The position numbers were made by a program, and so were the translations under genes. A DNA stretch of 64,000 bases from Anaerolineaceae bacterium 4572_78 (GTDB taxonomy: Bacteria; Chloroflexota; Anaerolineae; 4572-78). Within the stretch, counting starts at the first letter, position 1; every line of letters begins with the position of its first letter. Shown here piece after piece: positions 8,420-62,408 of the stretch. The notes under the pieces are model-generated. The model was not told the DNA's origin. It worked only from the letters and a program-made list of their open reading frames with translations, and ran no database searches. The stretch lies in NCBI GenBank assembly GCA_002084875.1, contig NBMH01000045.1, forward strand, positions 5,082 through 69,081, in the 5' to 3' direction.

Positions 8420-9664
8420 ATGTCACCTAAAAATTATCACGAATACATTACAAAAGTTCTTTTAGACGAAAAACGTTTCATGAAGCTTCGTTTTAGTGGT
8501 AAATCAAAATTGCAATCAACTCAATGGCAAGAGGTCATTTTACGTCCTATTTTCCTAAAAGAAAAGCGATATATTCAGTTTTCTTATTTTGACAAACAGA
8601 AGAATATAACTAAAAATTACATAGGACACAGTGTGGAAATCAACTTAAATAAATTGTTTGACATGTCCTTCAAAAATATTCACATTTTCACCACCGATGA
8701 AAATATTCACATTCAACAAACCAAAAAAGGGAAAATCATTATCCATCATCATCGTCATGACCTACCACTACCGTTACCGTCCTTTGCCCATGACCGTCCT
8801 AAAAACTTGATTTTGCCCGAAGGAAAGCCTGACCCATTTCTAAAAAAGATTGGTGTTATGACCAAAGCAGGTCATGTTAGGGCGACAATGCGGGATAAAT
8901 TTCGGCAGATTAATGCCTTTCTTAATATTATTCAGGAAACCCATGCTATTGAAAAACTGACTAATTTTCCTTTGCATGTGATTGATTGTGGTTGCGGTAA
9001 TGCTCATTTGACATTTGCAGTTTATCACTATCTAAATCATGTATTGCAACGCCCCACAAAAATTATTGGCATCGACCGCAAAGCAGATTTGCTTGAAAAA
9101 CGCAATGAGCATGCCAAACAATTAGGATGGACTGGTCTTACATTTGAGCAGGCTGATATTATTGAATATCAACCCATACAATCACCCGACATTGTATTAG
9201 CATTGCATGCTTGTGATACTGCTACAGATGAGGCTCTAGCCCAAGCAATAAATTGGGATAGTCGTATGATTTTTAGTGTGCCATGTTGTCATCATCATCT
9301 CCAAGCACAATTCATACATGATAACCGTCAGACAAAAAAGGTTTTTAAAAACCTTTCTTGTCTTGCTACTAAAGCTCTTTTGCGGCATGGCATTTTACGA
9401 GAACGGCTCGGCGATATTCTGACCGATACATTTCGCTCTTTAATCCTTCAAAAGCATGGCTACCAAACAAATGTGATTGAATTTATTTCGAGTGAACACA
9501 CCGCTAAAAATATAATGATTCGAGCCGTCAAAACATCACCTTCCCCAAATCCCCTTCGTTCACTGGGTGGACAAATGGGGGGTAACAGTAAACGTGGGGA
9601 AGAAGAATACGAAGCCTTAAAATCTATCTGGCAAGTGACTCCTTATTTGGAAGAACTTTTGTGA
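8420..9664 (+). CDS. Class I SAM-dependent methyltransferase (Methyltransf_32-like)
   Basis: VIDCGCGNAHLTF, IGIDR, LALHACDTATDEALA, PCCHH, EHTAKN; carries in-frame repeat insertions. Confidence 0.88.
   Translation: MSPKNYHEYITKVLLDEKRFMKLRFSGKSKLQSTQWQEVILRPIFLKEKRYIQFSYFDKQKNITKNYIGHSVEINLNKLFDMSFKNIHIFTTDENIHIQQTKKGKIIIHHHRHDLPLPLPSFAHDRPKNLILPEGKPDPFLKKIGVMTKAGHVRATMRDKFRQINAFLNIIQETHAIEKLTNFPLHVIDCGCGNAHLTFAVYHYLNHVLQRPTKIIGIDRKADLLEKRNEHAKQLGWTGLTFEQADIIEYQPIQSPDIVLALHACDTATDEALAQAINWDSRMIFSVPCCHHHLQAQFIHDNRQTKKVFKNLSCLATKALLRHGILRERLGDILTDTFRSLILQKHGYQTNVIEFISSEHTAKNIMIRAVKTSPSPNPLRSLGGQMGGNSKRGEEEYEALKSIWQVTPYLEELL
9330..9363. repeat. Family A palindrome inside coding sequence
   Basis: AGACAAAAAAGGTTTTTAAAAACCTTTCTTGTCT, read in frame as QTKKVFKNLSCL. 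Confidence 0.88.
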
Positions 9665-9674
9665 AGTATATCTG

Positions 9675-10481
9675 TTATCCACCCATGTTTTTCTGTAACC
9701 ATTGATACATCAGCACTCCACCAGCCACAGCTACATTCAAGCTTTCGGCTTGTCCGAGCAATGGCAAACGAACCCAGTTTGTTATACAACTGCGAACGTC
9801 ATGGCTAAGACCACGAGCCTCGTTTCCCAAAACTAATGCGATTGAGCCATGTAAAATATTCTCATGCCAAGCTAATTTGCCATGTTGTCCATCGGCTCCC
9901 GTTATGGTGTAATTAGCCTTTTGCAATATTGTAAATAGAGAAACATGTTTAGTAGTGTGAATGAGAGGGATGGCAAAAAGTGACCCCATGCTACCGCGTA
10001 CAGTTTTGAGGTCAAATGGGTCAACGCATGGCTCGATTAAAACAATGGCAGTGGCAGAAATGCTATCTGCGGTGCGGATAATCGTCCCTAAATTGCCAGG
10101 GTCTTGTAAGCGGTCTGCGATAATAATCAGTGAAGGATGGTCGGTACTACTTAAAACTTTTGTGATTTTTTCGGAGAAAATAGGCAAGGTGACAATGATG
10201 CCTTGTGGAGATTCTCGTTCTGATAGTGCTTGCATGACATGTGGGCTGATAGCATGCAGTTGTCCACCTGCTTGGGCCAATTTGGAAAGCAGTTTCGGGG
10301 CAGTTTTACCCTTAAAATGCGATTCACTATAAAAAACATCTAATGGTTGATGCCTTTGTGCTAATGCCATGCTAATCAGTTGTAATCCTTCAATAGCAAA
10401 ACGATTTTGTGCTTGACGGTGTTTACGTTGGCTTAATTTGCGGATGGCGATAATTTTAGGGTTTTTTGTGGAAGTAATCAT
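9675..10481 (-). CDS. TrmH/SpoU-family RNA 2'-O-methyltransferase
   Basis: ITSTKNPKI, LQDPGNLGTIIRTA, RGSMGS, GNEARGL, ESLNVAVA. Confidence 0.92.
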   Translation of the reverse strand: MITSTKNPKIIAIRKLSQRKHRQAQNRFAIEGLQLISMALAQRHQPLDVFYSESHFKGKTAPKLLSKLAQAGGQLHAISPHVMQALSERESPQGIIVTLPIFSEKITKVLSSTDHPSLIIIADRLQDPGNLGTIIRTADSISATAIVLIEPCVDPFDLKTVRGSMGSLFAIPLIHTTKHVSLFTILQKANYTITGADGQHGKLAWHENILHGSIALVLGNEARGLSHDVRSCITNWVRLPLLGQAESLNVAVAGGVLMYQWLQKNMGG

Positions 10482-10550
10482 ATAAATGATGATTTCAAAA
10501 TCAATAAAGTAGAATCAGTAGTGCGAAGGATTTATCTTTTGAACTTCTTT

Positions 10551-10991
10551 TTATGCAACAGAAATAGTAATCCGTTCTCCTTTGTTATGGTCATAAACAT
10601 CAACAATCTGCCCAAATTGTCCATCTTCAATGGCTGAAACGACTTGTTTCATGTTTAATCCATTTACTTCGGGGGCTAATGTAGCTCCCATTTTCATGGC
10701 AACATTTATCAAGCCGAGTGGTAGACGTATTGCCATTTTTTCCTTTCCGCTGGCATCATCAAGCACTTGAATAGATAACCAATGTGGTTGAGATTGTTCC
10801 TGTTCTCGCACATTTTTTTCATCGCTAGTTAGGGCAGATAGCAAAGTAGCGGCTTCATCGGCGGATATTTTGCCGTCTTCCACCATTTTCAAAATTTTTA
10901 TCGAAACCGAAGTAAGAAAACCCACTGATTCTGTAGGCTCGGTGGGATAAATTGCCACTGTACTTTTACTTTTAGGTATGAATTTTGCCAT
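10551..10991 (-). CDS. SHOCT-like/YvlB-N-type small protein
   Basis: ILKMVEDGKISADEAATLLSAL, then W..I.V.D...K..IRLPL and IVDV...ERITI; N-terminal extension overlaps a hairpin repeat. Confidence 0.7.
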   Translation of the reverse strand: MAKFIPKSKSTVAIYPTEPTESVGFLTSVSIKILKMVEDGKISADEAATLLSALTSDEKNVREQEQSQPHWLSIQVLDDASGKEKMAIRLPLGLINVAMKMGATLAPEVNGLNMKQVVSAIEDGQFGQIVDVYDHNKGERITISVA

Positions 10992-12888: not shown

Positions 12889-13136
12889 GTAGGGATTTAT
12901 GGCATAAATCCTACACGATGATAAAACATGTGTCCCATATTCCTACATGTTCTACCTGAAAAATAGCATTGTGAACAGCCCTGAATAGTAGGGGCGTACG
13001 CTGAACAACCCTGGTTCACCCTCATCCTTGCCCTCCCCCACGGGGAGAGGGGAATCTACCCCACTCAATCCCCCCGCCTGCGAGGGGAAGTGACTGCTCC
13101 CCTCCTGTTCACGGGGAGGGGCGGGGATGGGGTCTA
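12889..13136. repeat. Cluster of GTAG-type and CCCCTC-type palindromic repeats
   Basis: GTAGGGATTTATGGCATAAATCCTAC hairpin; about 88-nt block 12911-13000 near-identical to 25201-25289; several CCCC..GGGG hairpins. Confidence 0.85.
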
Positions 13137-13157: not shown

Positions 13158-13439
13158 ATGTCAGAAAAACAATGTGTGCGAGCATTAATTAGTGGACGTG
13201 TGCAAGGAGTCAGCATGCGTTACTATACACAATTGAAAGCAAATGAACTAGGCATATCAGGTTTTGTCCGCAACCTTAGAGACAAGCGGGTAGAAGCTGT
13301 TTTTGAAGGAACACCAACTGACATCAAAACCATGCTGAAATGGTGTGAAACTGGGGCACCACATGCCCGCATTGATAATGTTCAGATTGACTATGATGTT
13401 CATTCAAAAGGGTTTCATGGATTTAATATACGGTTTTGA
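13158..13439 (+). CDS. acyP: Acylphosphatase
   Basis: SGRVQGVSMR, GFVRNL.D.RVE signature. Confidence 0.93.
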   Translation: MSEKQCVRALISGRVQGVSMRYYTQLKANELGISGFVRNLRDKRVEAVFEGTPTDIKTMLKWCETGAPHARIDNVQIDYDVHSKGFHGFNIRF

Positions 13440-13441
13440 AT

Positions 13442-14956
13442 ATGAATATTTTACCTGCAATTGAAGCGTATTGCCAACATCATGGGCTCATCAATCGAGG
13501 AGATAAAATTGTTGTTGCGGTTTCAGGGGGCATGGATTCGGTATGTTTATTGGCAATTCTGCGAAAGATGGCTACTAGGCATGATTTGCAATTGTATGTG
13601 GCTCATCTTAATCATGGCATGCGAAATAAAGCTGCAGATGCCGATGCCGATTTTGTCAAAGATATTTCCCATCGCTGGAAGTTGCCAACTGTCATTAGCC
13701 GCATGGATGTGCCTGCTTATGCCAAACAGCAAAAATGCGGTTTAGAGACAGCCGCTCGCCAAGTCCGATACAAATTTTTGGCAGATGTCGCTCAAAAAGT
13801 TGCGGCAAATAAAATTGCTGTTGGGCATCAAGCAAATGACCAAGCCGAAACAATTTTAATGAACTTTTTACGCGGGGCAGGTGTGACAGGGCTACAAGGC
13901 ATGCAACCTATAACTACTTTAGACCTTAAAAATTTTAAAACCATTTCAGGTCTGAATAAGCCAAATATTTTTCTAATCCGCCCATTATTGAATACCACAC
14001 GTAATGACATTAAAACATTTTGCCATGAAAATCATCTAGCTTATCGCTGTGACCTCACCAATCAAGACATCACTTTTTACCGAAATCGTATCCGCCATGA
14101 GTTGATTCCTCTGTTAGAAACATACAATCCAAATATTGTCAAGACATTGTTGCGAACAGGCAATATCATGACGGCTGATAACGTGGTATTACAGGAGCAA
14201 ATTCGACAAAATTGGCAAACGGTCTTGATTACGGAAACAGATGATATACTCACATTTGATTTGGAGAAATGGCAACGATTACCGTTAGCTATTCAACGTG
14301 GTTTATTACGCCATGCCATTCATGTCTTGCATCATTCATTGGTCAATGTTGGATTTATCCACATTGACCAAGCTATTACATTATTAAATTATGGACAAAC
14401 AGGACGGAAATTCGTTTTTCCAACACAGCTTATCTTGACAATCTTGTATAATAGATTTATACTCAAACTCCCCGACAGGAGCGACAAAGCTCACTTTGTC
14501 AAAGCAAGCTTTGACGCTCCAATCAGGTTTGATGCTCCAGTCAACTTAATCATTCATGGTGTAATACCATTGCCTGATACAAATTGGATTGTTGAAACTT
14601 GCATGATTCTGTCGAAAGGTTTTCATCCCATGTCAAATGAACAGAAGGCATATTTCGATGCGGATTGTCTTGGTGAAAAACCTTACTTGCGAACTCGGCA
14701 GGCAGGCGACAAATTCTATCCTTATGGGCTTGAGGGACATAGTCAAACTCTAAAGAAATTTATGATTAACCACAAAATTCCTGCTTCACATCGTGATAAT
14801 ATCCCTTTGTTAGTTGCAGAAGACGGAAAAATTTGTTGGGTCATTGGTTGGAGAACGGGGCATTGGTGTCAAGTCACGAAAAAAACGAAACGCATTTTGC
14901 AAATAGAGATTAAGAAAAAGGTAAATACGATAACACATGACCGAAAAGAAAAATAA
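13442..14956 (+). CDS. tilS: tRNA(Ile)-lysidine synthetase
   Basis: AVSGGMDS PP-loop, E.AAR..RY, GHQANDQAETILMN, LIRPLL, D.TN....RNRIR, TilS_C (R.RQAGD, LKKFMIN.KIP..RD.IPL). Confidence 0.95.
   Translation: MNILPAIEAYCQHHGLINRGDKIVVAVSGGMDSVCLLAILRKMATRHDLQLYVAHLNHGMRNKAADADADFVKDISHRWKLPTVISRMDVPAYAKQQKCGLETAARQVRYKFLADVAQKVAANKIAVGHQANDQAETILMNFLRGAGVTGLQGMQPITTLDLKNFKTISGLNKPNIFLIRPLLNTTRNDIKTFCHENHLAYRCDLTNQDITFYRNRIRHELIPLLETYNPNIVKTLLRTGNIMTADNVVLQEQIRQNWQTVLITETDDILTFDLEKWQRLPLAIQRGLLRHAIHVLHHSLVNVGFIHIDQAITLLNYGQTGRKFVFPTQLILTILYNRFILKLPDRSDKAHFVKASFDAPIRFDAPVNLIIHGVIPLPDTNWIVETCMILSKGFHPMSNEQKAYFDADCLGEKPYLRTRQAGDKFYPYGLEGHSQTLKKFMINHKIPASHRDNIPLLVAEDGKICWVIGWRTGHWCQVTKKTKRILQIEIKKKVNTITHDRKEK
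14478..14540. repeat. Family B repeat inside tilS coding sequence
   Basis: GGAGCGACAAAGCTCACTTTGTCAAAGCAAGCTTTGACGCTCCA...TTTGATGCTCCAG, read in frame as RSDKAHFVKASFDAPIRFDAP. Confidence 0.85.
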
Positions 14957-19691: not shown

Positions 19692-19738
19692 TGTTTTTTG
19701 TTTTAGCATTGAACAACTCTCCACCCCTAGCTCCTCGT

Positions 19739-29258: not shown

Positions 29259-29290
29259 TAGTAGGGGCGTATGGCCATACGCCCCTACTA
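29259..29290. repeat. Family C GTAG-type 32-bp perfect palindrome
   Basis: TAGTAGGGGCGTATGGCCATACGCCCCTACTA. Confidence 0.9.
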
Positions 29291-48189: not shown

Positions 48190-50847
48190 TCATCCAAAAA
48201 CTTGAATACCCATCGCTAAGGTAGCACATGCCATTAGCACTAAAAAGAAAAACGTAAAAATAATCATGTGAGATAAATAAAACTGAAACTTCAATAAACC
48301 AGGAATCGTTATTTGAGCTTCCTCGAAAATGAGGGGAGCATCCTCCTTTTCAACCGATGTTGAAGTTATCCTGAAATCATATTTTTTAGATAGCCAGGGA
48401 GCTTTAATCGGTTTGACTAATAAACGTACTGCTAACCGTTCACCTGAATCAATATGTGGTGTCCATGTCCAGTTTTGTTCAATCGTATCCCCAATTGCTC
48501 CATCAGGACCAGCCTGCAAGCCATGTGGCGGGGTATCAGGTACGCGCGGCAGATAACTAGGTTTAGTATGTCCTTGTACTTGTTGTGTTGTATGTGTTTG
48601 AATATCAGTTTGGACAATTGCAGGCGATGTCTTATTACTATCAGATACGGAAGCCTGACCCGTGCTGTCATCATTCGATTCATTACTCCCCTGAAACTGC
48701 TCCATTTCTCTGCCAACTCGTTTTTGTACTTGCTCAACACGTCGCATGCTAGAATACATACGCCTCATGGACATAGCAGTTTTTCTTACGGGTGTGCCAA
48801 TCGAAGTTGGTAAGAAATAGCCAATTGCCATCAGAATTTCCGCTAAAACGCTTGCCATACGAGCAAATGCACTTACTTGAGCTATTCTTTCACCACAGCC
48901 TTTGCGTTCTCCCTGCGGTTGTGATTCTGTAACACCCTCTCTCCCCACGTCAACGGGGTGATGCAAGGGGGGGGCTTCTGCCGAATATTGAATCATGTCA
49001 GGGGTGGCTCGATGACCACTAGGTGCTATACCACTGTAAACTGGTTGACGTTGTAATTCTAATGGTATTCCTTTGAGGGTGAAAATAAATTTAAGTGCTT
49101 TCAAAGGGTCATCTGCCCACAACTCAAACCGACTAGCTACATTCCCTTGATTATGGATTTCCATGTGACAACTAGCACTGACATCCTTACTCCGTCGCCC
49201 GACGAGAAATAATAATAGCATGAACAGGGCAAGTGCCCATATCAAACCCCATACAGCAAACCAAATCGCCGTAGTTTTTAGCGATGTCCATAAATTTCTG
49301 ACTCGTGTTGGTTGAGAAAGGAGAACAGGCGGTTCGATAAATTCGATTGAAAGGGTGTCTTGTCCTATTCGATTTAATATGTCTGTGGCTCGCACACTGA
49401 GTTTTTGTAAGCCCGCTTGATAATTACTGGTATCTAAAGAAAATTCATACGGCGGACGGCTATCGCTGCCGACAGGTTCACCATTTATCAGCAATTCAAC
49501 ATTTTCTAATTTTACTAGAGCTTCGATACGAGCATCAACAAGAAGCTCCTTCCCAATTATCACCTGTTTTTGAGGGGATGATATTGTAACCTGCATGGGT
49601 GGAACAATCTTCAATCGTATATCAAACTTGCCAGTATTTCCTGCCTTGTCTATGGCAATCACCTGCAGGGCATGGGGGCCTGGGTCAACCATAGTGCTAT
49701 CCCATTGATAATCAAAAGGACTTTTCAAAACATGTTCTATTTGATTTTCATCCACAAGATAACGTACTGAATTGATTGACAAATCAGATATGATTTCAGG
49801 AGTAAAATGAACGTTCCCGCCCACAACAATATCATTTTCAAAACCAGGTAAATTAACATGGACATTACGAACAGTCGGTGTAAATGAACGGCTATCTTGA
49901 CCTGCTATTTGTTGGGTATTTGGAGAAATTATTTGAACGACTACTTTTTTCTCCAATATGTCAGGAGTGGAATCCCGACCTGTTGAGTTTGTTATCGTAG
50001 GTGATTCGTAGGTTATTTTATATCCTTGTTGCAATAAATCTGCTAAATCAACTAGCGTACCTTCAATACCGCTAACCGTGTTAAGTGGAGCAAATTGTCC
50101 TCCCGAACTTGTAGCAATTTGTTGTAAGGTATCAGCTTTGCCTTGTGTTCGCAGACCAACACCTACGATATAGTAGGGGACATGCACATCATTTATTGCG
50201 GCTAATGCTTCTTCATCGGTATTTCGTCCTACATTATCTCGCGTATTGGTTACGATAAGAACGGCACGCTGAACTCCTGAAAGTGGTTTAATAACATTTG
50301 CTGATTCGATGATTGCTTCATTCAGGGTGGTGAAATTTCCTTCGGGTTGCAAGGAATCGATGATATTTTTTAGAGTGGTTTTATCACTCGTAAATTGTTG
50401 AGCATGTCGTAAACCATCGGATAATATCAACATTGCCATCTCGTCATCTGTACGGAGATAGTCAATAAAATTGCTCACGGATATTTTCCCAACCTCTAAC
50501 GGCTCGGCAGGCATGCTATTATCCATAACCAATACCATTTTTAATTTTGGAGAGGCAGCTGGCTCAACCCGAAGTAAATCGGGTGATATGGCAACGCCAT
50601 CATCTAACACGACAAAATCTTCTTCAGTCAAACCCAATATAGGTTTGCCTTCCTCATCAACCACGGTTACATAAACAATTACTTCAGGATAGGTATCACT
50701 CTTAATTTGATTAAGATAAACAATCACCTGTGGCTCTTGTGCATGCAAAACCAGAGAAGTCCCAAACCCAAAATTATACTTTGGAATGATATTAAACGTC
50801 ACCAACAGTACAGTTAATATAGCAATGATACCCTTTATAATATGCAT
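48190..50847 (-). CDS. Exported VWA plus Ig-like protein with TM and cytoplasmic Ig-like domain
   Basis: Signal/TM, YPEV.VYVTV.D..G.P..GLT..DF, VWA (VMDNS, T.LNEAI, IVTNT), two Big-like domains (WDST...G.H.L...A.D..GN), TM, C-terminal TM. Confidence 0.8.
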   Translation of the reverse strand: MHIIKGIIAILTVLLVTFNIIPKYNFGFGTSLVLHAQEPQVIVYLNQIKSDTYPEVIVYVTVVDEEGKPILGLTEEDFVVLDDGVAISPDLLRVEPAASPKLKMVLVMDNSMPAEPLEVGKISVSNFIDYLRTDDEMAMLILSDGLRHAQQFTSDKTTLKNIIDSLQPEGNFTTLNEAIIESANVIKPLSGVQRAVLIVTNTRDNVGRNTDEEALAAINDVHVPYYIVGVGLRTQGKADTLQQIATSSGGQFAPLNTVSGIEGTLVDLADLLQQGYKITYESPTITNSTGRDSTPDILEKKVVVQIISPNTQQIAGQDSRSFTPTVRNVHVNLPGFENDIVVGGNVHFTPEIISDLSINSVRYLVDENQIEHVLKSPFDYQWDSTMVDPGPHALQVIAIDKAGNTGKFDIRLKIVPPMQVTISSPQKQVIIGKELLVDARIEALVKLENVELLINGEPVGSDSRPPYEFSLDTSNYQAGLQKLSVRATDILNRIGQDTLSIEFIEPPVLLSQPTRVRNLWTSLKTTAIWFAVWGLIWALALFMLLLFLVGRRSKDVSASCHMEIHNQGNVASRFELWADDPLKALKFIFTLKGIPLELQRQPVYSGIAPSGHRATPDMIQYSAEAPPLHHPVDVGREGVTESQPQGERKGCGERIAQVSAFARMASVLAEILMAIGYFLPTSIGTPVRKTAMSMRRMYSSMRRVEQVQKRVGREMEQFQGSNESNDDSTGQASVSDSNKTSPAIVQTDIQTHTTQQVQGHTKPSYLPRVPDTPPHGLQAGPDGAIGDTIEQNWTWTPHIDSGERLAVRLLVKPIKAPWLSKKYDFRITSTSVEKEDAPLIFEEAQITIPGLLKFQFYLSHMIIFTFFFLVLMACATLAMGIQVFG

Positions 50848-50851
50848 GATT

Positions 50852-51628: not shown

Positions 51629-51705
51629 TTTACATGTGTTCCTTTATTACACTAACCTCTCTTGTCTTGACTGTCAAAGCAAGCTTTGATGCTCCAGTTA
51701 TGTAC

Positions 51706-52479: not shown

Positions 52480-52545
52480 TTTTGGATTTTTGACCTCCCG
52501 TGTATTGGAATGGCAAAGCAAACAACATGACCTCATGCTCGCACA

Positions 52546-52632
52546 TGGAGCGAAAAAGCTTGCTTTTTCATGTCAAAGCAAGCTTTGACCCTCCAGTTTA
52601 TTTTGTCAAAAAATAGCATTGAACAGCCCTAG
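52546..52632. repeat. Family B hairpin plus family C tail
   Basis: TGGAGCGAAAAAGCTTGCTTTTTCATGTCAAAGCAAGCTTTGACCCTCCAG...TAGCATTGAACAGCCCT. Confidence 0.88.
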
Positions 52633-52784
52633 GTCTGCTATAGAAGCTTTGCCGTTCCGTATTTTCATGAAAATCCAGTTTACCATGATTATTGTTGATA
52701 GGCAACATGGTATGGTTTGCATGCGATTTGGAACATCCAAGCAAGCTTGGAGCATCAAGGTTTTTGTGATTAACCACTACCGCA

Positions 52785-54338
52785 TTACTCTTTAACTTGC
52801 CAGACCACATCAATCACAGTGCCATCCACCCACTTAATCGCTGCCACAACTCGGTCTTCAAATTCGATAGGTTGTGGTTTACCGCAAATTCTTTCAGCTT
52901 CTTCTTTCAGTTCATGGATAGTTTTAATCGGCAGGTCGGAATCCTTAACGGCTTCTAGCAAGTCAGTTCGACGGGGATTAATGGCTATGCCTCTTTCGGT
53001 AACAATGACATCAATCAACTCGCCAGGGCCGGTTATGGTAGTCACTTCATCACGAATAACAGGAATCCTGTCCCTGAATAACGGAATCGGCATAACGACA
53101 GTTTTACTGAAAAGACAGTTTTGCCAGCCACCAATGCCATGCAATAAATAGCCATCGGAATGAGTTACAACATTCCCATTAAAATTGACATCAACTTCGG
53201 TCGCCCCCAAAATAACCACATCCACCATGCCCGCAAAGTTGCCCTTGCCATGATAGTTGTAGCTAGTGAAGGGACTGGTATCAACATGATTCGGATTCTC
53301 ACGCATGGAACGAATACCTTCTAAGTCAAAAGTCTGCCCATCCAAGATATATTCAACCAATCCTTCCTCGAACATTTTCACCAAATATTGGTTACTGCCT
53401 GCACGAGCAAATCGAGCTTTAATGCCCCTCTCACGCATGATGTCGCCAAAATAGTTGCCGATTGATAGAGATGTACCACCTGCACCTGCTTGGAATGAAA
53501 AACCATCGCGGATAATCCCCGCCTCGTCACAGAACTTTGCTGTCAATTCGGCGAGGTACAAACGGTCAGGGCTTTTTGTGATTTGGGTCGTGCCTGAAAT
53601 AATCCGTTCGGGGATACCGATTTTGTCCATCTCAACCACATAATCTACATAATTTCCTTGAATTTGCCAAGGGATGCATGGGAAAGGAATTAAGTTATCG
53701 GTTACAACAATGACCTTATCGGCATATTGCGAATCGGCTAGAGCAAATCCCAACAAGCCACATGCCGATGAGCCTGTTACACCGTTGGCATTGCCGAATG
53801 GGTCAGCCGTTGGAGCAGCGATGACTGCAATATCAATCTGTACTTCTCCGTCTTGGACTGCCTGATATCGTCCGCCATGTGAACGAAGCACAGCCGTACC
53901 TTTCATTTTTCCTTGCGTGGTAAATCGACCTAACGGTCCATTCATACTCCCTTCGATGCGGTTTAATGTACCATCTTCAAGATAAGCTGTCAAACGTTCT
54001 TGACATTGGAATGAAGCCGACGGATACCACACCAAATCTTTTATGCCCAATTCAGCCGCAATATCAAAAATTTGATTAGCTACTAAATCCCCATTCCGAA
54101 AATGGTGATGGGTTGAAATGGTCATGCCATCCTTAAGCCCTGCTTTAATCAGAGCTGTTTTCAAATCAGGTATCAGCTTATTGCCGTCAAGTGGATAGTC
54201 CGCACATGAGGCGATGCGGGGGGCATGTTTTCTACCTGTCGGTTTGTATTTGCCCACCCCCATGAATAGCACAACTGGTTTGCCATTGATTTCGGTCGGA
54301 ATATTTCTACCTACTGCATTTTTTTTAAATTTAACCAT
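52785..54338 (-). CDS. citF: Citrate lyase alpha subunit (citrate CoA-transferase)
   Basis: GLKDGMTISTHHHFRNGD, RSHGGR, FSFQAGAGG, LGATEVD.NFN.NV, GG.Q, VTERGIAINP, DGTVID. Confidence 0.93.
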   Translation of the reverse strand: MVKFKKNAVGRNIPTEINGKPVVLFMGVGKYKPTGRKHAPRIASCADYPLDGNKLIPDLKTALIKAGLKDGMTISTHHHFRNGDLVANQIFDIAAELGIKDLVWYPSASFQCQERLTAYLEDGTLNRIEGSMNGPLGRFTTQGKMKGTAVLRSHGGRYQAVQDGEVQIDIAVIAAPTADPFGNANGVTGSSACGLLGFALADSQYADKVIVVTDNLIPFPCIPWQIQGNYVDYVVEMDKIGIPERIISGTTQITKSPDRLYLAELTAKFCDEAGIIRDGFSFQAGAGGTSLSIGNYFGDIMRERGIKARFARAGSNQYLVKMFEEGLVEYILDGQTFDLEGIRSMRENPNHVDTSPFTSYNYHGKGNFAGMVDVVILGATEVDVNFNGNVVTHSDGYLLHGIGGWQNCLFSKTVVMPIPLFRDRIPVIRDEVTTITGPGELIDVIVTERGIAINPRRTDLLEAVKDSDLPIKTIHELKEEAERICGKPQPIEFEDRVVAAIKWVDGTVIDVVWQVKE

Positions 54339-55575
54339 TTTCTTTCTCCTTCCAATCCTTTGCTAATTTGCCAATGTCAATCGCCATTTCGACGGTTCGT
54401 TGAGCCCGTTTGACGACAGGAGGGTCAATCATCTTTGAGCCAAGTGAGACAACGCCTAATCCTTTTTTTGTTGCCTCGTCAAATGCCCACACAATTCTTT
54501 TTGCCTTTTCGATTTCGGTTTTATTTGGGGCATAATATTCGTGAATGACCCCGATTTGGCGAGGATGAATACAACCCATGCCATCAAAGCCAAGTGACTT
54601 TGATTCTAGCACTACATCCCGCAAAGCATCCATGTCAGATACATCTGAGAAAACCGAATCAATCGGCTGAATCTTAGCAGCACGAGCTGCGTTCACAACT
54701 TGGCTTCGGGCAAAGAACGTTTCATGCCCTTTGCTAGTGCGTTGAGTTCCCAAATCAGCCGTATAATCTTCTAAACCAATGGCAAGTGCCACCATGTTAT
54801 CGGCGGCTGTAGCAATCTGATAAGCATTGACTACACCCAATGCACTTTCAATAATTGGCATAAGATAAATCGGATAGTTTTTGTCTTCTGATTCCAAAAT
54901 TTGAGTAATCTTATCGTTGATTTGTCTTATATCATCCGCCGACTCACATTTTGGAATGAGGATAAGATTCACATGGTTGGGAACGATATAATTCAAATCA
55001 TCTAATCCTTTTGGGAGTTGATTGATTCGTACCATGCGTTCTGCCCCATAAAAATTAACTTGACGTAGAGCATTTCGTACTAAAAATTTTGCCTCATATT
55101 TCTTGTCATGGGCAACAGAGTCTTCTAAATCCAAGATAATTCCATCAGAATGATGTATCCCAGCATTAAGCATAAACTTGGGGCTGTTGCCTGGCAAGTA
55201 AAGCCGAGACCGCCGATAACGGTCTTTCTTGGTATGATTCTGGTTTTCAGGGAGAATATCCAACAAATACTCTTTATCGATTTCGATGTTTTGCTGGAGC
55301 GTCAGAGCTTGTTTTGACATCTTGATAGCCGCCTCAAAACGAGCTGCTAATACAAACGGTAATGCACCGCTATCTTCTATTTTTATGTTGGCATTCTTAA
55401 TATCGAAAAATGCAAATACATCTCGACATAATTCTAGAATCGAATCGCCAAATAATTTTCCAACTTTGCTTTGTAGTTCTATGTTAATGCCGCCCTTATT
55501 TGTTAATTCAAGGGTAACAAAACAATCTGAACGAACTGTTTTTCCTTTATTTCCTGTGGTTACAATTTTGTCCAC
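54331..55575 (-). CDS. citE: Fused citrate lyase ACP (CitD-like) and beta subunit (CitE)
   Basis: N-terminal VRSDC..S.V...FG..I..D.GALPFVL.AR (CitD); RRSRLYLPGN, ILDLEDSV, VRIN, PIIES, G.EDY, IHPRQ, MIDPP (CitE). Confidence 0.9.
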   Translation of the reverse strand: MDKIVTTGNKGKTVRSDCFVTLELTNKGGINIELQSKVGKLFGDSILELCRDVFAFFDIKNANIKIEDSGALPFVLAARFEAAIKMSKQALTLQQNIEIDKEYLLDILPENQNHTKKDRYRRSRLYLPGNSPKFMLNAGIHHSDGIILDLEDSVAHDKKYEAKFLVRNALRQVNFYGAERMVRINQLPKGLDDLNYIVPNHVNLILIPKCESADDIRQINDKITQILESEDKNYPIYLMPIIESALGVVNAYQIATAADNMVALAIGLEDYTADLGTQRTSKGHETFFARSQVVNAARAAKIQPIDSVFSDVSDMDALRDVVLESKSLGFDGMGCIHPRQIGVIHEYYAPNKTEIEKAKRIVWAFDEATKKGLGVVSLGSKMIDPPVVKRAQRTVEMAIDIGKLAKDWKEKENG

Positions 55576-55656
55576 AATTTCCTCCTATTAAGAAAATATC
55601 AGGAAAGTATACTTTGATTTGAATATTTGGGCAAGTAATGTGAGATATACTTTAGA

Positions 55657-55900
55657 AACCGTTCACCCCAACCCCTAGGGCTACTCAATGCTAGTTGTAG
55701 GGGTGTATGGCCATACGCCCTTACTATTAGGGATGTTCAAAGCTTGCTTTGACATGAAAAAGCGAGCGATTTGATGCTCCATTGTGCGACTACATGATTG
55801 GAAATCATGTCGAAGTTCTTGCCAAACGTTCAATTGCATGGTACAATTTCACTATCTTACATGCCAAGACCTGACAGGTTTCTAAAAACCTGTCAGGTCT
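55657..55900. repeat. Dense cluster of repeat families (D-end, C, B, E, A variant)
   Basis: AACCGTTCAC; GTAGGGGTGTATGGCCATACGCCCTTAC; AAAGCTTGCTTTGACATGAAAAAGC; CGACTACATGATTGGAAATCATGTCG; AGACCTGACAGGTTTCTAAAAACCTGTCAGGTCT. Confidence 0.88.
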
Positions 55901-55940
55901 AACAATAGAGATTAAGATTTTTATTTGATTCATAAACAAC

Positions 55941-56352
55941 AAGGAGGTAAACGGCTCAAAAATCTATTGAGCCGTACTATTTATACTAAAAATGGGCACA
56001 AAGTAACATTTTCATGAAGATATCTTACTGGAGCGTCAAAGCTTGCTTTGACAGTCAAGACAAGAAAGGTTTTTGAAAACCTTTCTTGTCTAACTATAAA
56101 CCCAATAGTACTGTCATGACAACTCACAACAGTGGTGATGAAAATAGTAATGCAACCATTACTTGGTCACCAAATTATGTTGGCGTTGAAACGGCAAAAT
56201 CATACGCAAAAGCGGTTGTCATTGCTACACAAATAGGTCGCTTAGCAGAGGGCTTACCAGATACAGATGCGAAAATCATCAATCAAGTCATAGCCACATT
56301 TGATGGCGTGACACAGATTAAAATCGCAGAAACCGACCCTCGTATGCAATAA
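55941..56352 (+). pseudogene. Hypothetical gene disrupted by family B and A repeats
   Basis: Strong AAGGAGGT RBS followed by ACG instead of ATG and an early stop; repeats at 56028-56091; open remainder 56086-56352. Confidence 0.4.
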
Positions 56353-56440: not shown

Positions 56441-58324
56441 ATGCACAACTATCATCGTTACATTCCTTATATCCTCATCATAATTGCCACATCATTATAC
56501 ATCTTCACTTTGGATACAGGGCTACGGACAGATGAATTGATGGGTGGTGATTTAATCACCCATCAATATGCCCAAGTGCAAGGGCGACCAAGCAATGCAC
56601 CTGGCTATCCACTGTATACCATGCTCGGTTGGGTATGGTTTCGTGTGGGGCGTTTATTTCTTAGCTGGCTTTTCAACCCGATTCAAATCCTCTCATTTTA
56701 TTCCACGCTATGGGGATTAGCTTCATTGTGGATATTGTATCATCTCCTCATGCGTCCTGAAGTAACCAACAAAAATTGGGGCATCGCTATCTTACTGACC
56801 AGCTTTTATGGGGTGACTTATTTTTTTTGGTATTATAGCGTCACCACCGAACAATACACTTCTGCCATTTTCCAAACCCTGCTCATTGTATGGCTTGCCT
56901 TTGAATGGGAACAAAACCCCTCAAATAAAATCCTGCTCATGATGGCTTTCATGTGTGGCACCATGCTTGCCAACATGATTACGACATTGTTTATTTTACC
57001 TCCCTTGTTTTACCTGATATTTAGCAAGCGACCTCGCATTTTAACCGACATAAAATTAGTCATGCAAGCAATTATCTTCGGTTTATTTCCCACCATCAGT
57101 TATGCTTATATTTACATTCGAGGACTACAGCATCCTGAATGGCGAGGTGAAGGAGAATGGACAAATGTCACCGAATGGTTTTTCCAATTCATTACCATTC
57201 AACAGGGACAAGATGAATTAACACTAGGCTTGACGCTAGAAAATATAATCACTCACGAATTTCCATCTATCATGGCACATGAATTAACTTTGCCAGTTTT
57301 GTTAGGTGGCATTATTGGTTTAGGCATGTTCGGCAGACGAAAGGCAATTTTCTTTTATGGAACATTATTTATCTACATGGCATTTGTGGTTGCGTATCGT
57401 TTTGGCAACTGGTTTCAAGTTATTTTGCCCATGTATCCTTTAATCGTGCTTGGGTTCGGCAAAAGCATAACGTACTACAAACATTTTACATGTGATTCTT
57501 GGCTTATGTCCACCAGACAAGAAAGGTTTTTGAAAACCTTTCTTGTCTTAACCATGAAAACGTTGTCTCTTCTATTGATCATGTTAGTCAGTTACCGATT
57601 TATCATCAGCTTACCACAAGCAAATCAGCACTATCTTCCACAAGATACAGCACTTGAACCAGGCTGGGCAATAATAACCGACATTTCAAAAGCAGGCATG
57701 GGCAATGAAACTATCACTATCTCTCCAGAATTTCAAGAATGGTTGGCATTGCAATACTTGCTTGAGATTTGGGATGTGGATATTTTGCTCGAACTGCATG
57801 AACCAAATACTCCCGCCGAATTTATAACTCGTCAAGCAATTATTGCACAAACCCATCAGATTAATTTAGAATCAATTCATCCTCAAGCAATTGGCAGAGA
57901 GGTTATTCATCTCAAGCATGAACGAAACATAATTGCCTCTGAACTTGCAATTTTATCGGGAAATATGCTAAATTTTGGTGGGATGATTTATCTAATTGAT
58001 TACGAAGTTTATGATGGGGGCGAATTAATTACTATGTCATGGCTGGCACCAAATTTAATCCTCACCGATTACACCATGTCAGTTCGCTTGTGGCAACATG
58101 GGCAACCAATCGAAGCATGGTCAGGTCTATTAATCCAAGACCATCGTCCAGTTTGGAACATGTATCCAACAAATTACTGGCATGCCAATGAAATTGTTAA
58201 AGACAGTTACACCTTTACACTACCACCACATGCCCAACCTGACCAAATTCAAATAGTGATTTATCACGTAACAGAAGATGGTTTTGAAAATTTAGATGCT
58301 CATTTTTTAAACATAGACTTTTAG
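56441..58324 (+). CDS. DUF2723/TMEM260-like GT-C glycosyltransferase
   Basis: YIFTL....GD.......PGYPLYTMLG, FW.YS.TTE.YT, many TMs, C-terminal YPT.YW...EIV.D Ig-like unit. Confidence 0.82.
   Translation: MHNYHRYIPYILIIIATSLYIFTLDTGLRTDELMGGDLITHQYAQVQGRPSNAPGYPLYTMLGWVWFRVGRLFLSWLFNPIQILSFYSTLWGLASLWILYHLLMRPEVTNKNWGIAILLTSFYGVTYFFWYYSVTTEQYTSAIFQTLLIVWLAFEWEQNPSNKILLMMAFMCGTMLANMITTLFILPPLFYLIFSKRPRILTDIKLVMQAIIFGLFPTISYAYIYIRGLQHPEWRGEGEWTNVTEWFFQFITIQQGQDELTLGLTLENIITHEFPSIMAHELTLPVLLGGIIGLGMFGRRKAIFFYGTLFIYMAFVVAYRFGNWFQVILPMYPLIVLGFGKSITYYKHFTCDSWLMSTRQERFLKTFLVLTMKTLSLLLIMLVSYRFIISLPQANQHYLPQDTALEPGWAIITDISKAGMGNETITISPEFQEWLALQYLLEIWDVDILLELHEPNTPAEFITRQAIIAQTHQINLESIHPQAIGREVIHLKHERNIIASELAILSGNMLNFGGMIYLIDYEVYDGGELITMSWLAPNLILTDYTMSVRLWQHGQPIEAWSGLLIQDHRPVWNMYPTNYWHANEIVKDSYTFTLPPHAQPDQIQIVIYHVTEDGFENLDAHFLNIDF
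57515..57548. repeat. Family A palindrome inside coding sequence
   Basis: AGACAAGAAAGGTTTTTGAAAACCTTTCTTGTCT, identical to intergenic 56058-56091, read in frame as RQERFLKTFLVL. Confidence 0.9.
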
Positions 58325-58346: not shown

Positions 58347-58513
58347 AGGGCTGTTCAATGCTAGTTGTAGTGGCGGCCGTACGCCACTACTATTCATGGC
58401 TTGTTCAATGCTATTTTTTGACAAGATAAATTGGAGGGTCAAAGCTTACTTTGACATGAAAAAGCAAGCTTTTTCGCTCCGTTGTGCGACCACGTGATTG
58501 AAAATCATGTCGA
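58347..58513. repeat. Composite C+B+E repeat cluster between convergent genes
   Basis: GTAGTGGCGGCCGTACGCCACTAC; TTGGAGGGTCAAAGCTTACTTTGACATGAAAAAGCAAGC; CGACCACGTGATTGAAAATCATGTCG. Confidence 0.85.
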
Positions 58514-61358: not shown

Positions 61359-61469
61359 ACACACCAGCCTTTGTGTAAATATTAAAACTAAATGTAAATG
61401 CGTTTACTTCTAGAGGTATAACACATTTTGACTTAGTAGTCAAATTTGCTAGTGTATTTTGATTTAAAA

Positions 61470-61495
61470 AGTAGGGGCGGCCGTACGCCCCTACT
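61470..61495. repeat. Family C GTAG-type hairpin
   Basis: AGTAGGGGCGGCCGTACGCCCCTACT. Confidence 0.85.
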
Positions 61496-61532
61496 ACTAG
61501 CTGACAAAAGGTGGAGTGAATAATTACCAATT

Positions 61533-62408
61533 TTATCCCCAAAAAGTTCGCACAAATATCACATCACCCCAAACCATGATAATCCAGCCAACGATAATTA
61601 AAAATGGTCCATAAGGAATATAAGTTCGTTTGGTAACCAGTCCGAATAATAATGTTGGAACTAATACAATGCCTGCTAAAATAGCACTGTACAAGATAAC
61701 CAAAATAATATAAGGAAAAGCAGTAATTAATCCTAGAAATGTTGCTAATGTAACATCGCCACTACCAAGCCCACCTTTGTATAAAAGATTACCAAAAACA
61801 AAAAGCCCGTAAAAAATAATAAAGCCAACTGCTCCACCAAAAATTGCCTGTCTCCAATTGAAGGTCAAGCTAAAAAAACTTCCCATGACAGCTAGCAAAA
61901 TAGCAGGTAGAATTATAACATTTTGGATGAGGCGGTGTTCCAAATCAGTTACCATGAGCAGGATTAAAATGCTGGTGTAGGCAAATAAAAATCCCAAATG
62001 TGGTGAAGCCCCTTCGTAGTGATACAAAAAAATGAACAAGATAGGCGTTATTAGTTCAACGATAACTAACCGTAAACCGATAGTTTTACCACATGCCGTA
62101 GGACGGACTTCTAGGCTATCCCGAACTGTACATTTATGATTGCCTGTTAGATAAGCAATCACCGCACTCCATTGCATCCATTTTTTAGGAGCATGACAAT
62201 ATTTTGTCTGGAGTCCACAGTCTTTTGTGGATAAACTTTTATCATCATCCGCAGTGGCAGTTGAAATATACGAAGTATTATCATCCACAAAATTTTTACA
62301 AAACGGAACTTGCCAAAGCGATTCTCGTAAAGGGAGCACAGAAGCACAATGGTTAATCACAACTCCAACAATCCAACCAATTAAAAAAATAGTCCCAGAA
62401 ATTAGCAT
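61533..62408 (-). CDS. A24 prepilin peptidase with insertions in its zinc-binding domain
   Basis: G..VG..IN, TDLEHRLI, GLGSGDVTL (catalytic Asp motifs), IPYGPFL; both CxxC pairs expanded. Confidence 0.88.
   Translation of the reverse strand: MLISGTIFLIGWIVGVVINHCASVLPLRESLWQVPFCKNFVDDNTSYISTATADDDKSLSTKDCGLQTKYCHAPKKWMQWSAVIAYLTGNHKCTVRDSLEVRPTACGKTIGLRLVIVELITPILFIFLYHYEGASPHLGFLFAYTSILILLMVTDLEHRLIQNVIILPAILLAVMGSFFSLTFNWRQAIFGGAVGFIIFYGLFVFGNLLYKGGLGSGDVTLATFLGLITAFPYIILVILYSAILAGIVLVPTLLFGLVTKRTYIPYGPFLIIVGWIIMVWGDVIFVRTFWG

What the first reader, a model, noticed from the sequence alone, without database searches (positions are those of the whole stretch)
8420..62408. Palindromic repeats repeatedly in frame inside proteins (RPE-like peptide insertions)
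Seen: intergenic palindrome families also occur within intact ORFs: family A in the methyltransferase (9330-9363), in the GT-C protein (57515-57548, identical to intergenic 56058-56091) and degenerate in tilS (13921-13953); family B in tilS (14478-14540) and at the CitD-CitE junction (55294-55320); CCCC/GGGG hairpins in the methyltransferase (9537-9600) and VWA protein (48933-48975); GTAG-like hairpins in the VWA protein (49959-49983) and prepilin peptidase. Established: Rickettsia palindromic elements behave this way. Inference: several unrelated repeat families are adding new loop peptides across this proteome, including a normally essential gene.
Basis: partly seen in the sequence, partly recalled or inferred. 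Interest (0 to 1): 0.75.

Follow-up and report, generated by a model that had tools for sequence, protein, structure and literature searches.

The report
Palindromic repeats translated inside genes
In this uncultured Anaerolineae-like (Chloroflexota) bacterium, two abundant families of short hairpin-forming repeats that mostly lie between genes also sit in frame inside intact genes and add short loop peptides, as is known from Rickettsia and some other bacteria; several of the other hairpins listed with them are not repeats.

Summary
Partly confirmed. Four claimed in-gene copies are true members of genome-wide families. Family A (34-nt palindrome, 170 loci) lies in the methyltransferase and the GT-C protein. 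Family B (double hairpin, 473 loci) lies in the TilS linker and the CitD-CitE linker.

Ortholog alignments show the coded peptides are specific to this genome. They are missing in 118 of 119, 11 of 12 and 7 of 7 homologues, and TilS gains 3-6 residues. Family A is absent from 30 relatives.

Genome-wide, 72 copies sit in ORFs with coding flanks: 8-10% of A, A2 and B loci, against 68% for random intervals.

Not confirmed:
- The CCCC/GGGG and GTAG-like hairpins are unique sequences. The four folded do no better than most shuffles.
- TilS site 1 is an ordinary variable loop.
- The CitD-CitE fusion is ancestral.

No Y1/RAYT transposase was found.

This is a new member of a known kind: intragenic REP/RPE-like elements. 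The scan noted the same phenomenon earlier on two other pieces of this genome.

The parts
9329..9364 (.). Family A palindrome inside the methyltransferase ORF (8420-9664, +). It is read as QTKKVFKNLSCL (aa 304-315).
   Evidence: nhmmer E 1e-9. Columns for aa 304-311 are empty in 118 of 119 homologues and in 8 of 8 orthologs from relatives. The AF2 model has pLDDT 66-70 here against a mean of 89.
57514..57549 (.). Family A palindrome inside the GT-C (TMEM260-like) ORF (56441-58324, +). It is read in the other open frame as RQERFLKTFLVL (aa 359-370).
   Evidence: nhmmer E 6e-10. 34/34 identical to 56058-56091. About 12 extra residues relative to 11 of 12 orthologs. Public contigs from two studies enter the palindrome from both sides.
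14477..14543 (+). Family B unit (14477-14521) plus an 18-nt imperfect duplication of its tail, inside tilS (13436-14956, +). It codes aa 348-368, RSDKAHFVKASFDAPIRFDAPV.
   Evidence: nhmmer E 1.8e-8; DNA fold z -4.95. The linker is 31 residues against 23-29 in 118 of 119 homologues (one has 33). Columns 353-356 are filled in 0-1 of 119. AF2 predicts coil with pLDDT below 50 at 354-357. A strain variant, P0121, keeps the segment.
55294..55320 (-). 27-nt half unit of family B inside the CitD-CitE fusion ORF (54331-55575, -). It codes MSKQALTLQ (aa 86-94) in the linker between the two domains.
   Evidence: An exact 9-aa gap in 7 of 7 orthologs, all of which are already fused. 26 BLAST hits at E<=1e-3. 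Contigs from runs X1 and X2 (two studies) bridge it with 0 differences.
5629..5664 (.). Intergenic family A copy. Further copies lie at 8028-8062, 38289-38323, 48138-48171 and 56057-56092.
   Evidence: nhmmer
52545..52598 (.). Intergenic full-length family B double hairpin. Further copies lie at 6918-6971, 8346-8399, 19651-19693, 51650-51699, 55731-55779, 56026-56073 and 58429-58482.
   Evidence: nhmmer; the repeat finder families D5, D7 and D9
55866..55901 (.). Intergenic family A2 palindrome (AGACCTGACAGG...CCTGTCAGGTCT). A weaker copy lies at 27044-27077.
   Evidence: nhmmer E 5e-10
29259..29290 (.). Intergenic GTAG...CTAC palindrome of family C/C2. Further copies lie at 55695-55726 and 61469-61496.
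   Evidence: nhmmer. Genome-wide only 3 of 156 C/C2 loci lie in ORFs.
9537..9600 (+). Not a repeat. This unique sequence codes a 13-aa insertion found only in this genome (LRSLGGQMGGNSK) in the methyltransferase.
   Evidence: No other copy in the genome. Fold z +0.40. The columns are empty in 113-117 of 119 homologues. AF2 predicts coil with pLDDT 57-59.
13921..13953 (+). Not shown to be an insertion. A weakly A2-like palindrome lies in TilS loop 1, which varies in length in all homologues.
   Evidence: 9.0 bits, E 0.13 in the window. Loop length is 22 against a mode of 25 and a range of 10-41.
49959..49983 (-). Not a repeat. This unique sequence coincides with a 9-aa insert (TGRDSTPDI) in the VWA/Big_7 protein.
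   Evidence: fold z -1.45.

Best explanation
The window belongs to an uncultured Anaerolineae-like (Chloroflexota) genome that carries several lineage-specific families of small, non-autonomous palindromic repeats of the REP / miniature-element kind.

The families:
- Family A is a 34-nt perfect palindrome, AGACAAGAAAGG-TTTTTRAAAA-CCTTTCTTGTCT.
- Family A2 has the same ends and loop, with both stem arms changed in step.
- Family B is a head-to-head pair of two 25-nt hairpin units, each ending in GCTCCA.

How the in-gene copies arise (inferred): copies spread into new sites, and nearly all copies that land in genes are removed by selection. A copy survives inside a gene only if three conditions hold. 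Its net length must be a multiple of three. It must be read in a stop-free frame. It must land in a tolerant surface loop or an inter-domain linker. There it is simply translated as 9-21 extra residues.

What is shown and what is inferred:
- Shown: family membership, in-frame position, absence of the peptides from orthologs, absence of family A from relatives, depletion from coding DNA, and location in low-confidence loops of structure models.
- Inferred: that the copies arrived by transposition-like insertion rather than some other route, that they are selectively near-neutral, and that they are translated. The mobilising enzyme is unknown.
For: - Family sizes and membership of the four in-gene copies.
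- The same DNA is read in different frames in different hosts. Family A gives QTKKVFKNLSCL in the methyltransferase and RQERFLKTFLVL in the GT-C protein.
- The repeat-coded peptides are absent from orthologs. Methyltransferase: missing in 118 of 119 and 8 of 8. GT-C: 11 of 12. CitDE: 7 of 7, with an exact 9-aa gap. TilS linker: four columns filled in 0-1 of 119.
- Family A at up to 2 mismatches has 85 copies in this genome and 0 in each of 30 relatives of the same family or order.
- Census: in ORFs with coding-like flanks on both sides I find A 17/170, A2 11/140, B 43/473, C 2/73, C2 1/83, D 0/188, E 0/47, E2 0/79. The same test scores 2029/3000 random intervals.
- That gives 72 non-redundant copies in 66 host ORFs, with recurrent peptides.
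- Filtering by stop codons is visible. The 17 in-ORF A copies split into 10 in the TRKVF.NLSC frame, 3 in the RQERF.KTFL frame, and 4 one-base-shorter loop variants that step around the loop stop codon (my tally of the peptides listed). In the frame of family B that reads GASKLALT followed by a stop, only half units occur. In-ORF B copies are shorter than the others, 34 against 51 nt, p = 8e-8.
- The hosts are real proteins. 14 of the 20 sampled have Pfam domains, among them a GT28 MurG-like enzyme, a histidine kinase, TENA and CYTH. Invariant residues are kept in the TilS and methyltransferase alignments.
- The inserts fall in low-confidence coil or loop regions of otherwise confident AF2 models.
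- Independent sequence support: other-contig proteins P0001 and P0121 carry the inserts. Contigs from runs of two studies bridge the CitDE insert with 0 differences.
Against: - No mobilising enzyme was identified. Y1_Tnp/RAYT, DDE_Tnp_1 and DDE_3 were not found. The four OrfB_IS605 matches have no A or B copy at their ends. The genome is only 82% complete and is broken at repeats.
- No empty-site allele and no target-site duplication was seen, so mobility is inferred from distribution alone.
- In the methyltransferase and TilS the net gain (8 aa; 3-6 aa) is smaller than the repeat. An accompanying deletion or replacement has to be assumed.
- No RNA or protein data exist to show that the inserts are expressed.
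- The genome-wide count rests on my own ORF and dicodon classifier, not on curated genes. It missed 2 of the 4 verified window cases and may also include some fused neighbouring ORFs.
Confidence: 0.8

Rival explanations
1. The in-gene copies are kept because the hairpin does something at the DNA or RNA level, for example transcription pausing or attenuation, mRNA processing, or a recombination or protein-binding site. On this reading they are not near-neutral passengers.
For: In-ORF family A copies are as intact as intergenic ones: median 37.6 against 36.5 bits, p = 0.77. A and A2 differ by matched changes in both stem arms, so palindromy itself is preserved. The tilS copy still folds strongly, z -4.95.
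Against: The copies are 7-8 fold depleted from coding DNA. The hosts are functionally unrelated. The CitDE copy has lost its hairpin, z -0.21. In-ORF A2 and B copies are weaker or shorter than intergenic ones. Intact copies can equally be explained by recent insertion.
Confidence: 0.1
2. The in-gene copies are artefacts. Either the metagenome-assembled contigs are mis-joined at repeats, or the 'ORFs' are neighbouring genes that happen to read through a repeat lying between them.
For: The genome is a bin of 252 contigs. Short-read graph contigs break inside the GT-C palindrome. The genome-wide census uses my own ORF calls.
Against: Orthologs align continuously on both sides of all four window copies. 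Contigs from two studies bridge the CitDE copy with 0 differences. Proteins called on other contigs carry the methyltransferase and TilS inserts. Pfam envelopes span several sampled copies.
Confidence: 0.03
3. The recurring peptides are a protein-level module selected for a function and spread between genes. The intergenic copies would then be decayed remnants.
For: The same short peptides, such as GASKLALT, VKASFDAP and TRKVFKNLSC, recur in many proteins.
Against: About 90% of copies are intergenic. The same DNA is read in two or three different frames and on both strands. The DNA is palindromic, which protein-level selection does not require.
Confidence: 0.02
4. The sites that belong to no family (9537-9600, 49959-49983, the peptidase inserts, TilS site 1) are old repeat copies decayed beyond recognition, so the reader's longer list is right after all.
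For: All of them except TilS site 1 are insertions found only in this genome, in loops. TilS site 1 has one 89% match over 35 nt elsewhere in the genome. In relative G028 the same TilS loop holds a palindrome that belongs to that genome's own repeat family.
Against: None has another copy in the genome at E<=1e-3, apart from the single TilS site 1 match. Of the stretches folded, only a 24-nt one at the first peptidase insert beats most shuffles (z -2.52, 6 of 200); the others do not. Ordinary indels in loops explain them without repeats.
Confidence: 0.05

Closest known systems
Rickettsia palindromic elements (RPEs; Ogata et al. 2000, 2002). I know these only as summarised in passages of PMC10969869 and PMC3733652; I did not read the original papers.
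   Same: These are palindromic repeat families found both between genes and in frame inside unrelated, apparently functional genes. They add peptides that are compatible with the protein fold. Several families coexist in one genome.
   Different: RPE-1 is about 100-150 bp, and nearly half of its copies lie in ORFs. Here the units are 27-52 nt and 8-10% lie in ORFs. The host is a 4.1-Mb assembly (82% complete) that public runs labelled marine sediment and hydrothermal vent hold, not a reduced intracellular alphaproteobacterium. No sequence relation to RPEs was tested.
CGTC-tagged REPs (Di Nocera et al. 2013, PMC3733652; I read passages only). They include R. conorii RPE-4 and RPE-6.
   Same: The family B unit T-GTCAAAGC-AA-GCTTTGAC-GCTCCA has a (T/C)GTC head, a stem whose next positions are A, and a tail ending in CCA. 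It occurs mainly as head-to-head dimers of two unit types. It has no transposase beside it. It is found inside genes. All of these are traits the paper gives for CGTC REPs.
   Different: In family B the GTC pairs with GAC and so is part of the stem, whereas the paper describes the tag as unpaired. The loop is 2-4 nt. The paper lists CGTC REPs in five phyla, and Chloroflexi is not among them. The family consensus sequences are in its Figure 2, which I could not see.
GTAG REPs mobilised by RAYT transposases (PMC3733652, passages)
   Same: Family C/C2 (GTAGGGGCGTATGGCCATACGCCCCTAC) starts with GTAG and ends with CTAC. The paper reports GTAG REPs in Chloroflexi and reports intragenic REPs in several free-living species.
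   Different: Family C is almost never inside genes here (3 of 156 loci), and no Y1/RAYT gene was found. Families A, A2 and B carry no GTAG tag.
Bacterial MITEs with intragenic, in-frame copies (ERIC and others; Delihas 2007, 2008, seen only as cited in PMC10969869 and as an abstract listing of PMC2229807)
   Same: These are small non-autonomous repeats that occasionally form in-frame fusions with host ORFs.
   Different: MITEs are 70-300 bp with terminal inverted repeats and target-site duplications, and they derive from an insertion sequence. Here the units are shorter, no target duplication was seen, and no parent insertion sequence was found.

Membership tests
RPE-like (in-frame palindromic repeat) phenomenon | A multi-copy palindromic DNA family in the genome | tested here: met
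   A 170 loci, A2 140, B 473. Fold z -3.99 and -4.95.
RPE-like (in-frame palindromic repeat) phenomenon | Copies lie in frame inside intact ORFs of unrelated proteins | tested here: met
   Four verified copies in the window. 72 genome-wide by my classifier. The sampled hosts carry diverse Pfam domains.
RPE-like (in-frame palindromic repeat) phenomenon | The repeat-coded peptide is absent from orthologs | tested here: met
   Not met for TilS site 1.
RPE-like (in-frame palindromic repeat) phenomenon | The insert lies at the protein surface or in a loop | tested here: inconclusive
   The inserts fall in coil or low-pLDDT segments of AF2 models of the methyltransferase and TilS. Solvent exposure was not computed, and the other hosts were not modelled.
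RPE families proper (RPE-1 to RPE-10) | Sequence homology to the Rickettsia elements | not tested
   No RPE sequence was available from a tool. The sizes differ: 27-52 nt here against about 150 bp for RPEs as first reported.
GTAG REP / REPtron | A GTAG tetranucleotide at one end of the palindrome | tested here: not met
   Families A, A2 and B, the ones found in genes, start AGAC or TGGAG. Only family C/C2 has GTAG...CTAC.
GTAG REP / REPtron | A RAYT (Y1 HUH transposase) gene in the genome | tested here: not met
   PF01797: 0 matches in this 82%-complete genome. The same search found matches in 6 of 14 control genomes. Absence from an incomplete bin is not proof.
CGTC REP | CGTC/TGTC head, 8-9 bp stem starting with A-T pairs, 4-5 nt loop, CCA tail, head-to-head dimers (as described in PMC3733652) | tested here: inconclusive
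   Head, CCA tail, A-rich stem start and head-to-head heterodimers are present in family B. But the GTC is paired and the loop is 2-4 nt. I did not see the reference consensus (the paper's Figure 2).
MITE | Terminal inverted repeats and target-site duplication matching a resident insertion sequence; 70-300 bp | tested here: not met
   Units are 27-52 nt. PF01609 and PF13358 gave no match. The OrfB_IS605 copies have no A or B copy at their ends. No target duplication is evident at the CitDE insert (read from the sequence).

The most novel reading that the evidence does not exclude
Across this Anaerolineae order, transposase-less REP-like palindromes may be a recurrent source of new protein loops. 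Each lineage would have its own families. The same permissive sites would be hit independently: TilS loop 1 in relative G028 holds a palindrome of that genome's own repeat family. A weaker hint is that G002 has its own larger insert at the same GT-C loop, though only one weak match to it was found in that genome. On this reading the in-gene copies stay perfect palindromes because the hairpin itself is maintained, by selection or by a copy-correcting mechanism, and not merely because they are young.
Probability: 0.12. Interest if true: 0.6.

Novelty: new member of a known kind. Interest (0 to 1): 0.4.

Why it matters
In-frame survival of selfish palindromic repeats is a textbook oddity of Rickettsia. 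It has also been catalogued in a few free-living bacteria.

This case adds a well-populated example: at least 72 copies in about 66 proteins, from families A, A2, B and, rarely, C. The hosts include the only tilS gene found and a MurG-like enzyme. The organism is an uncultured Chloroflexota lineage whose sequence is held by public runs labelled marine sediment and hydrothermal vent. My searches found no paper describing such repeats in that group.

It is useful in three ways. It is a natural map of insertion-tolerant loops. It is a caution for gene callers and homology searches in repeat-rich metagenome bins. It offers material for asking how REP-like elements spread without a RAYT transposase. 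It does not reveal a new mechanism.

Tried and rejected
- Rfam and tRNA scans of the window found nothing.
- Mobiliser search: PF01797, PF01609 and PF13358 gave no match. PF01385 (TnpB-like) gave 4 matches, 3 of them at contig ends, with no family A or B copy within 1 kb of the intact copy. No mobiliser is proposed.
- Looked for a target-site duplication at the clean 27-nt CitDE insert by eye. None was convincing.
- The VWA site at 48933-48975 could not be judged. The orthologs are about 30% identical, and the region is low-complexity and cannot be aligned.
- G002's own insert in the GT-C loop: only one weak match elsewhere in that genome (83% over 41 nt), so it is not shown to be a repeat.
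- Expression: no RNA holder was listed among the public runs.
- Empty-site alleles: none appeared in the joints shown when contigs of four runs were laid on the window. However, 89 joints were not shown, and contigs drop rare variants.
- A first k-mer census mixed true repeats with conserved protein motifs such as the Hsp70-like FDFGGG motif. I replaced it with family HMM searches.
- Literature: a search for Anaerolineae + palindromic repeats + intergenic returned only CRISPR-related papers.

Full report
**What the window is.** The 64-kb window is G000:C134:5082-69081, part of a bin of 4.10 Mb in 252 contigs, 39.7% G+C and 82% complete. Homologues of its proteins are named by their sources as Chloroflexi/Chloroflexota, Anaerolineae, Anaerolineales, Anaerolineaceae, Caldilineae or Ardenticatenaceae bacteria. 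This agrees with two earlier notes of this scan on other pieces of the same genome. Public runs labelled marine sediment and hydrothermal vent metagenome, from seven studies, hold the stretch.

**The repeat families are real.**
- The repeat finder shows many dispersed direct and inverted repeats.
- A k-mer survey of the genome gives 2182 repeat intervals covering 93 kb and resolves them into modules.
- Family A is AGACAAGAAAGGTTTTTRAAAACCTTTCTTGTCT.
- Family A2 is AGACCTGACAGGTTTTTAAAAACCTGTCAGGTCT. It has the same ends and loop as A, with both arms changed together.
- Family B is TGGAGCG-AAAAAGCTTGCTTTTTC-ATG-TCAAAGCAAGCTTTGAC-GCTCCA, that is, two hairpin units head to head.
- Family C/C2 is GTAGGGGCGTAYGGCCRTACGCCCCTAC.
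- Modules D, E and E2 are found only between genes.
- Profile searches at E<=0.01 give these locus counts: A 170, A2 140, B 473, C 73, C2 83, D 188, E 47, E2 79.
- The family A pattern at up to 2 mismatches occurs 85 times in this genome and 0 times in each of 30 relatives of the same family or order.

**Checking each claimed site.**
1. *Methyltransferase, 9330-9363.* This is a family A copy (E 1e-9), read as QTKKVFKNLSCL. The columns for residues 304-311 are empty in 8 of 8 orthologs from relatives and in 118 of 119 database homologues.
2. *GT-C protein, 57515-57548.* This is a family A copy, 34/34 identical to the intergenic copy at 56058-56091. It is read in the other open frame as RQERFLKTFLVL. 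11 of 12 orthologs lack about 12 residues here. The twelfth (G002) has its own larger insert at the same loop.
3. *CitD-CitE, 55294-55320.* This is a 27-nt half unit of family B. It coincides exactly with a 9-residue gap (MSKQALTLQ) in 7 of 7 orthologs. All seven are already CitD-CitE fusions, so the repeat sits in an existing linker and did not make the junction.
4. *tilS, 14478-14540.* This is a family B unit (E 1.8e-8) followed by an 18-nt imperfect duplication of its tail (FDAPIR/FDAPVN). It lies between the substrate-binding domain and the C-terminal domain. The linker has 31 residues, against 23-29 in 118 of 119 homologues (one has 33). Columns 353-356 are filled in 0-1 of 119. The net gain of 3-6 residues is smaller than the 21 repeat-coded residues, so part of the old linker must have been replaced.
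5. *tilS, 13921-13953.* Its likeness to A2 is weak: 9.0 bits, E 0.13 in the window alone. There is one 89% match over 35 nt elsewhere in the genome. The loop has 22 residues against a mode of 25 and a range of 10-41 in 119 homologues. An insertion is not shown.
6. *Methyltransferase, 9537-9600 (the 'CCCC/GGGG hairpin').* It has no other copy in the genome and folds no better than shuffles: z +0.40, 125 of 200 as good. It is nevertheless a real 13-residue insertion, missing in 113-117 of 119 homologues.
7. *VWA protein, 48933-48975.* Unique sequence, z +0.72, in a region that cannot be aligned.
8. *VWA protein, 49959-49983.* Unique sequence, z -1.45 (16 of 200 shuffles as good). It coincides with a 9-residue insert missing in 6 of 6 orthologs at about 30% identity.
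9. *Prepilin peptidase.* There are inserts found only in this genome at about residues 66-72 and 94-103; the latter is missing in 13 of 13 orthologs. The DNA is unique. A 33-nt stretch at the second insert does not fold (z +1.11). A 24-nt stretch at the first forms only a short 5-bp hairpin (z -2.52, 6 of 200 shuffles as good).

**Genome-wide picture.**
- I called a copy 'in-ORF' if three conditions held: an ORF of at least 150 aa spans it; at least 20 codons lie on each side; and both 40-codon flanks score at least 0.1 on a dicodon model. On held-out ORFs that threshold passes about 95% of true coding windows and fewer than 5% of wrong-frame windows.
- The in-ORF fractions are A 17/170, A2 11/140, B 43/473, C 2/73, C2 1/83, D 0/188, E 0/47 and E2 0/79. 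The same test scores 2029/3000 random 36-nt intervals.
- The repeats are therefore strongly depleted from genes, yet 72 non-redundant copies lie in 66 distinct host ORFs.
- The test is conservative. It missed the GT-C copy (upstream flank score -0.02) and the CitDE copy (below the profile threshold).
- The coded peptides recur. By my tally of the 72 peptides listed, family A gives 10 copies in the T(R/K)KVF(K/E)NLSC frame, 3 in the RQERF.KTFL frame, and 4 with a loop one base shorter that steps from the frame holding a loop stop codon into an open frame.
- By the same tally, the 42 non-redundant in-ORF family B copies split into four peptide types: GASKLALT-type 23, VKASFDAP-type 10, MSKQALTLQ-type 4 and WSVKACFDM-type 5.
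- In the frame that reads GASKLALT the full element runs into a stop codon, so only half units occur there. This fits the finding that in-ORF B copies are shorter, 34 against 51 nt, p = 8e-8. In-ORF A copies are as intact as intergenic ones.
- Of 20 sampled hosts, 14 carry Pfam domains: CYTH, bacterial sugar transferase, PKD/laminin-G, HisKA/HATPase_c, trypsin, GT28 (MurG-like), two further TMEM260-like proteins, Type ISP C-terminal domain, FMN reductase/SCP2, CAP, TPR, TENA and GH99/LysM.

**Are the inserts tolerated?** The alignments list G000 among sequences that keep all invariant residues of TilS and of the methyltransferase. The search found one tilS match in the genome. In the AF2 model of the methyltransferase (mean pLDDT 89.0), the family A insert falls in 10-residue blocks of pLDDT 66-70, and the second insert lies in coil at 57-59. 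In the TilS model (mean 91.7), the family B segment lies in coil, with pLDDT below 50 at residues 354-357. Solvent exposure was not computed.

**Is it assembly error?**
- Protein P0001 was called on another contig of 1426 nt. It is 100% identical and carries both methyltransferase inserts.
- P0121 is a TilS variant with 3 substitutions, called on a 3757-nt contig. It keeps both TilS segments.
- Contigs of runs X1 and X2, from two studies, cover 52605-55734 and 52658-55718 with 0 differences and bridge the CitDE insert.
- At the GT-C palindrome the graph contigs stop inside the repeat from both sides, as expected for a multi-copy 34-mer.
- One of these runs may be the source of the bin, so this amounts to at most one independent confirmation.

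**Mechanism.** The best-supported reading is that these are small non-autonomous palindromic elements whose copies are purged from genes unless they are stop-free, a multiple of three in net length, and located in a loop or linker. The mobilising enzyme is unknown. No Y1/RAYT, DDE_Tnp_1 or DDE_3 match was found. Four TnpB-like OrfB_IS605 matches exist, three of them at contig ends, but there are no A or B copies at the ends of the intact one. The matched arm changes between A and A2 show that palindromy itself is preserved. This could reflect hairpin-dependent mobilisation or a structural role, and I cannot tell these apart.

**Comparison with what is known.**
- In-frame RPEs of Rickettsia are summarised in PMC10969869 (passages) and PMC3733652 (passages).
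- PMC3733652 also reports intragenic GTAG and CGTC REPs in several free-living species. It equates RPE-4 and RPE-6 with CGTC REPs.
- It describes CGTC REPs as having a CGTC/TGTC head, 8-9 bp stems starting with A-T pairs, CCA tails, mostly head-to-head dimers and no dedicated transposase.
- The family B unit (T-GTCAAAGC-AA-GCTTTGAC-GCTCCA, in head-to-head heterodimers) resembles that description. However, its GTC is paired and its loop is shorter.
- I could not see the paper's Figure 2 or its Additional file 3, so membership stays open.
- That paper lists CGTC REPs in five phyla without Chloroflexi, and lists GTAG REPs in Chloroflexi.
- My searches found no paper on such repeats in Anaerolineae.

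**Verdict.** The RPE-like interpretation is right for families A and B, and the rest of the list is ordinary loop variation. This is a new member of a known kind and of moderate interest. The scan had already noted the phenomenon on two other pieces of this genome. One of those cases, the 1513-aa protein on C200, reappears in my census.

Noticed in passing
L012:1966-2055 (relative G028, TilS loop 1): In a relative from another family of the same order, the TilS loop that corresponds to window 13921-13953 holds an imperfect palindrome (arms AGAGATTGGAGATTGG / CCAATCTCCAAT..CCAATCTCT). It has about a dozen further matches in that genome, the best 83% over 58 nt. This is an independent in-frame repeat in the same loop.
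   Followed up: partly
window 427-3132 (+) and 3519-5600 (-): Four tandem paralogous ORFs of 185-211 aa are spaced about 680 nt apart, with near-identical ribosome-binding and start regions. They lie next to a 693-aa Piwi-domain (prokaryotic Argonaute-like) protein encoded on the opposite strand. Pfam finds nothing in three of them and a sub-threshold PD-(D/E)XK hit in one.
   Followed up: partly
L044 and L048 (relatives G001 and G009, CitDE orthologs): Two relatives of one genus share an 8-residue insert (HSASSGQA / PSTGSGQG) after RINQLP in CitE. It is absent from this genome and from the other five orthologs.
   Followed up: no
L031:2533-2646 (relative G002, GT-C ortholog): G002 has its own insert of about 30 residues at the same GT-C loop that holds family A here. 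Only one weak match to it was found elsewhere in that genome.
   Followed up: partly
G000 contigs C206, C124 and C37 (contig ends); C136:21148-22176: There are four OrfB_IS605 (TnpB-like) matches. Three are cut by contig ends, which suggests a multi-copy element that breaks the assembly. No Y1 TnpA was found.
   Followed up: partly
window 12905-12999 and 25195-25289: A 95-nt intergenic composite repeat is present twice at 89% identity. It includes the TAGCATTGAACAGCCCT module and ends in GTAGGGGCGTAC.
   Followed up: no
window 45141-51628 (-): A cluster of three genes encodes a 994-aa FHA-domain protein, the 885-aa VWA/Big_7 protein and a 258-aa FHA protein.
   Followed up: no
window 55690-56100: A dense intergenic mosaic upstream of the GT-C gene holds copies of families C, B, A2, B and A within about 400 nt. 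Public-run contigs show very high summed depth and many alternative joints here.
   Followed up: no
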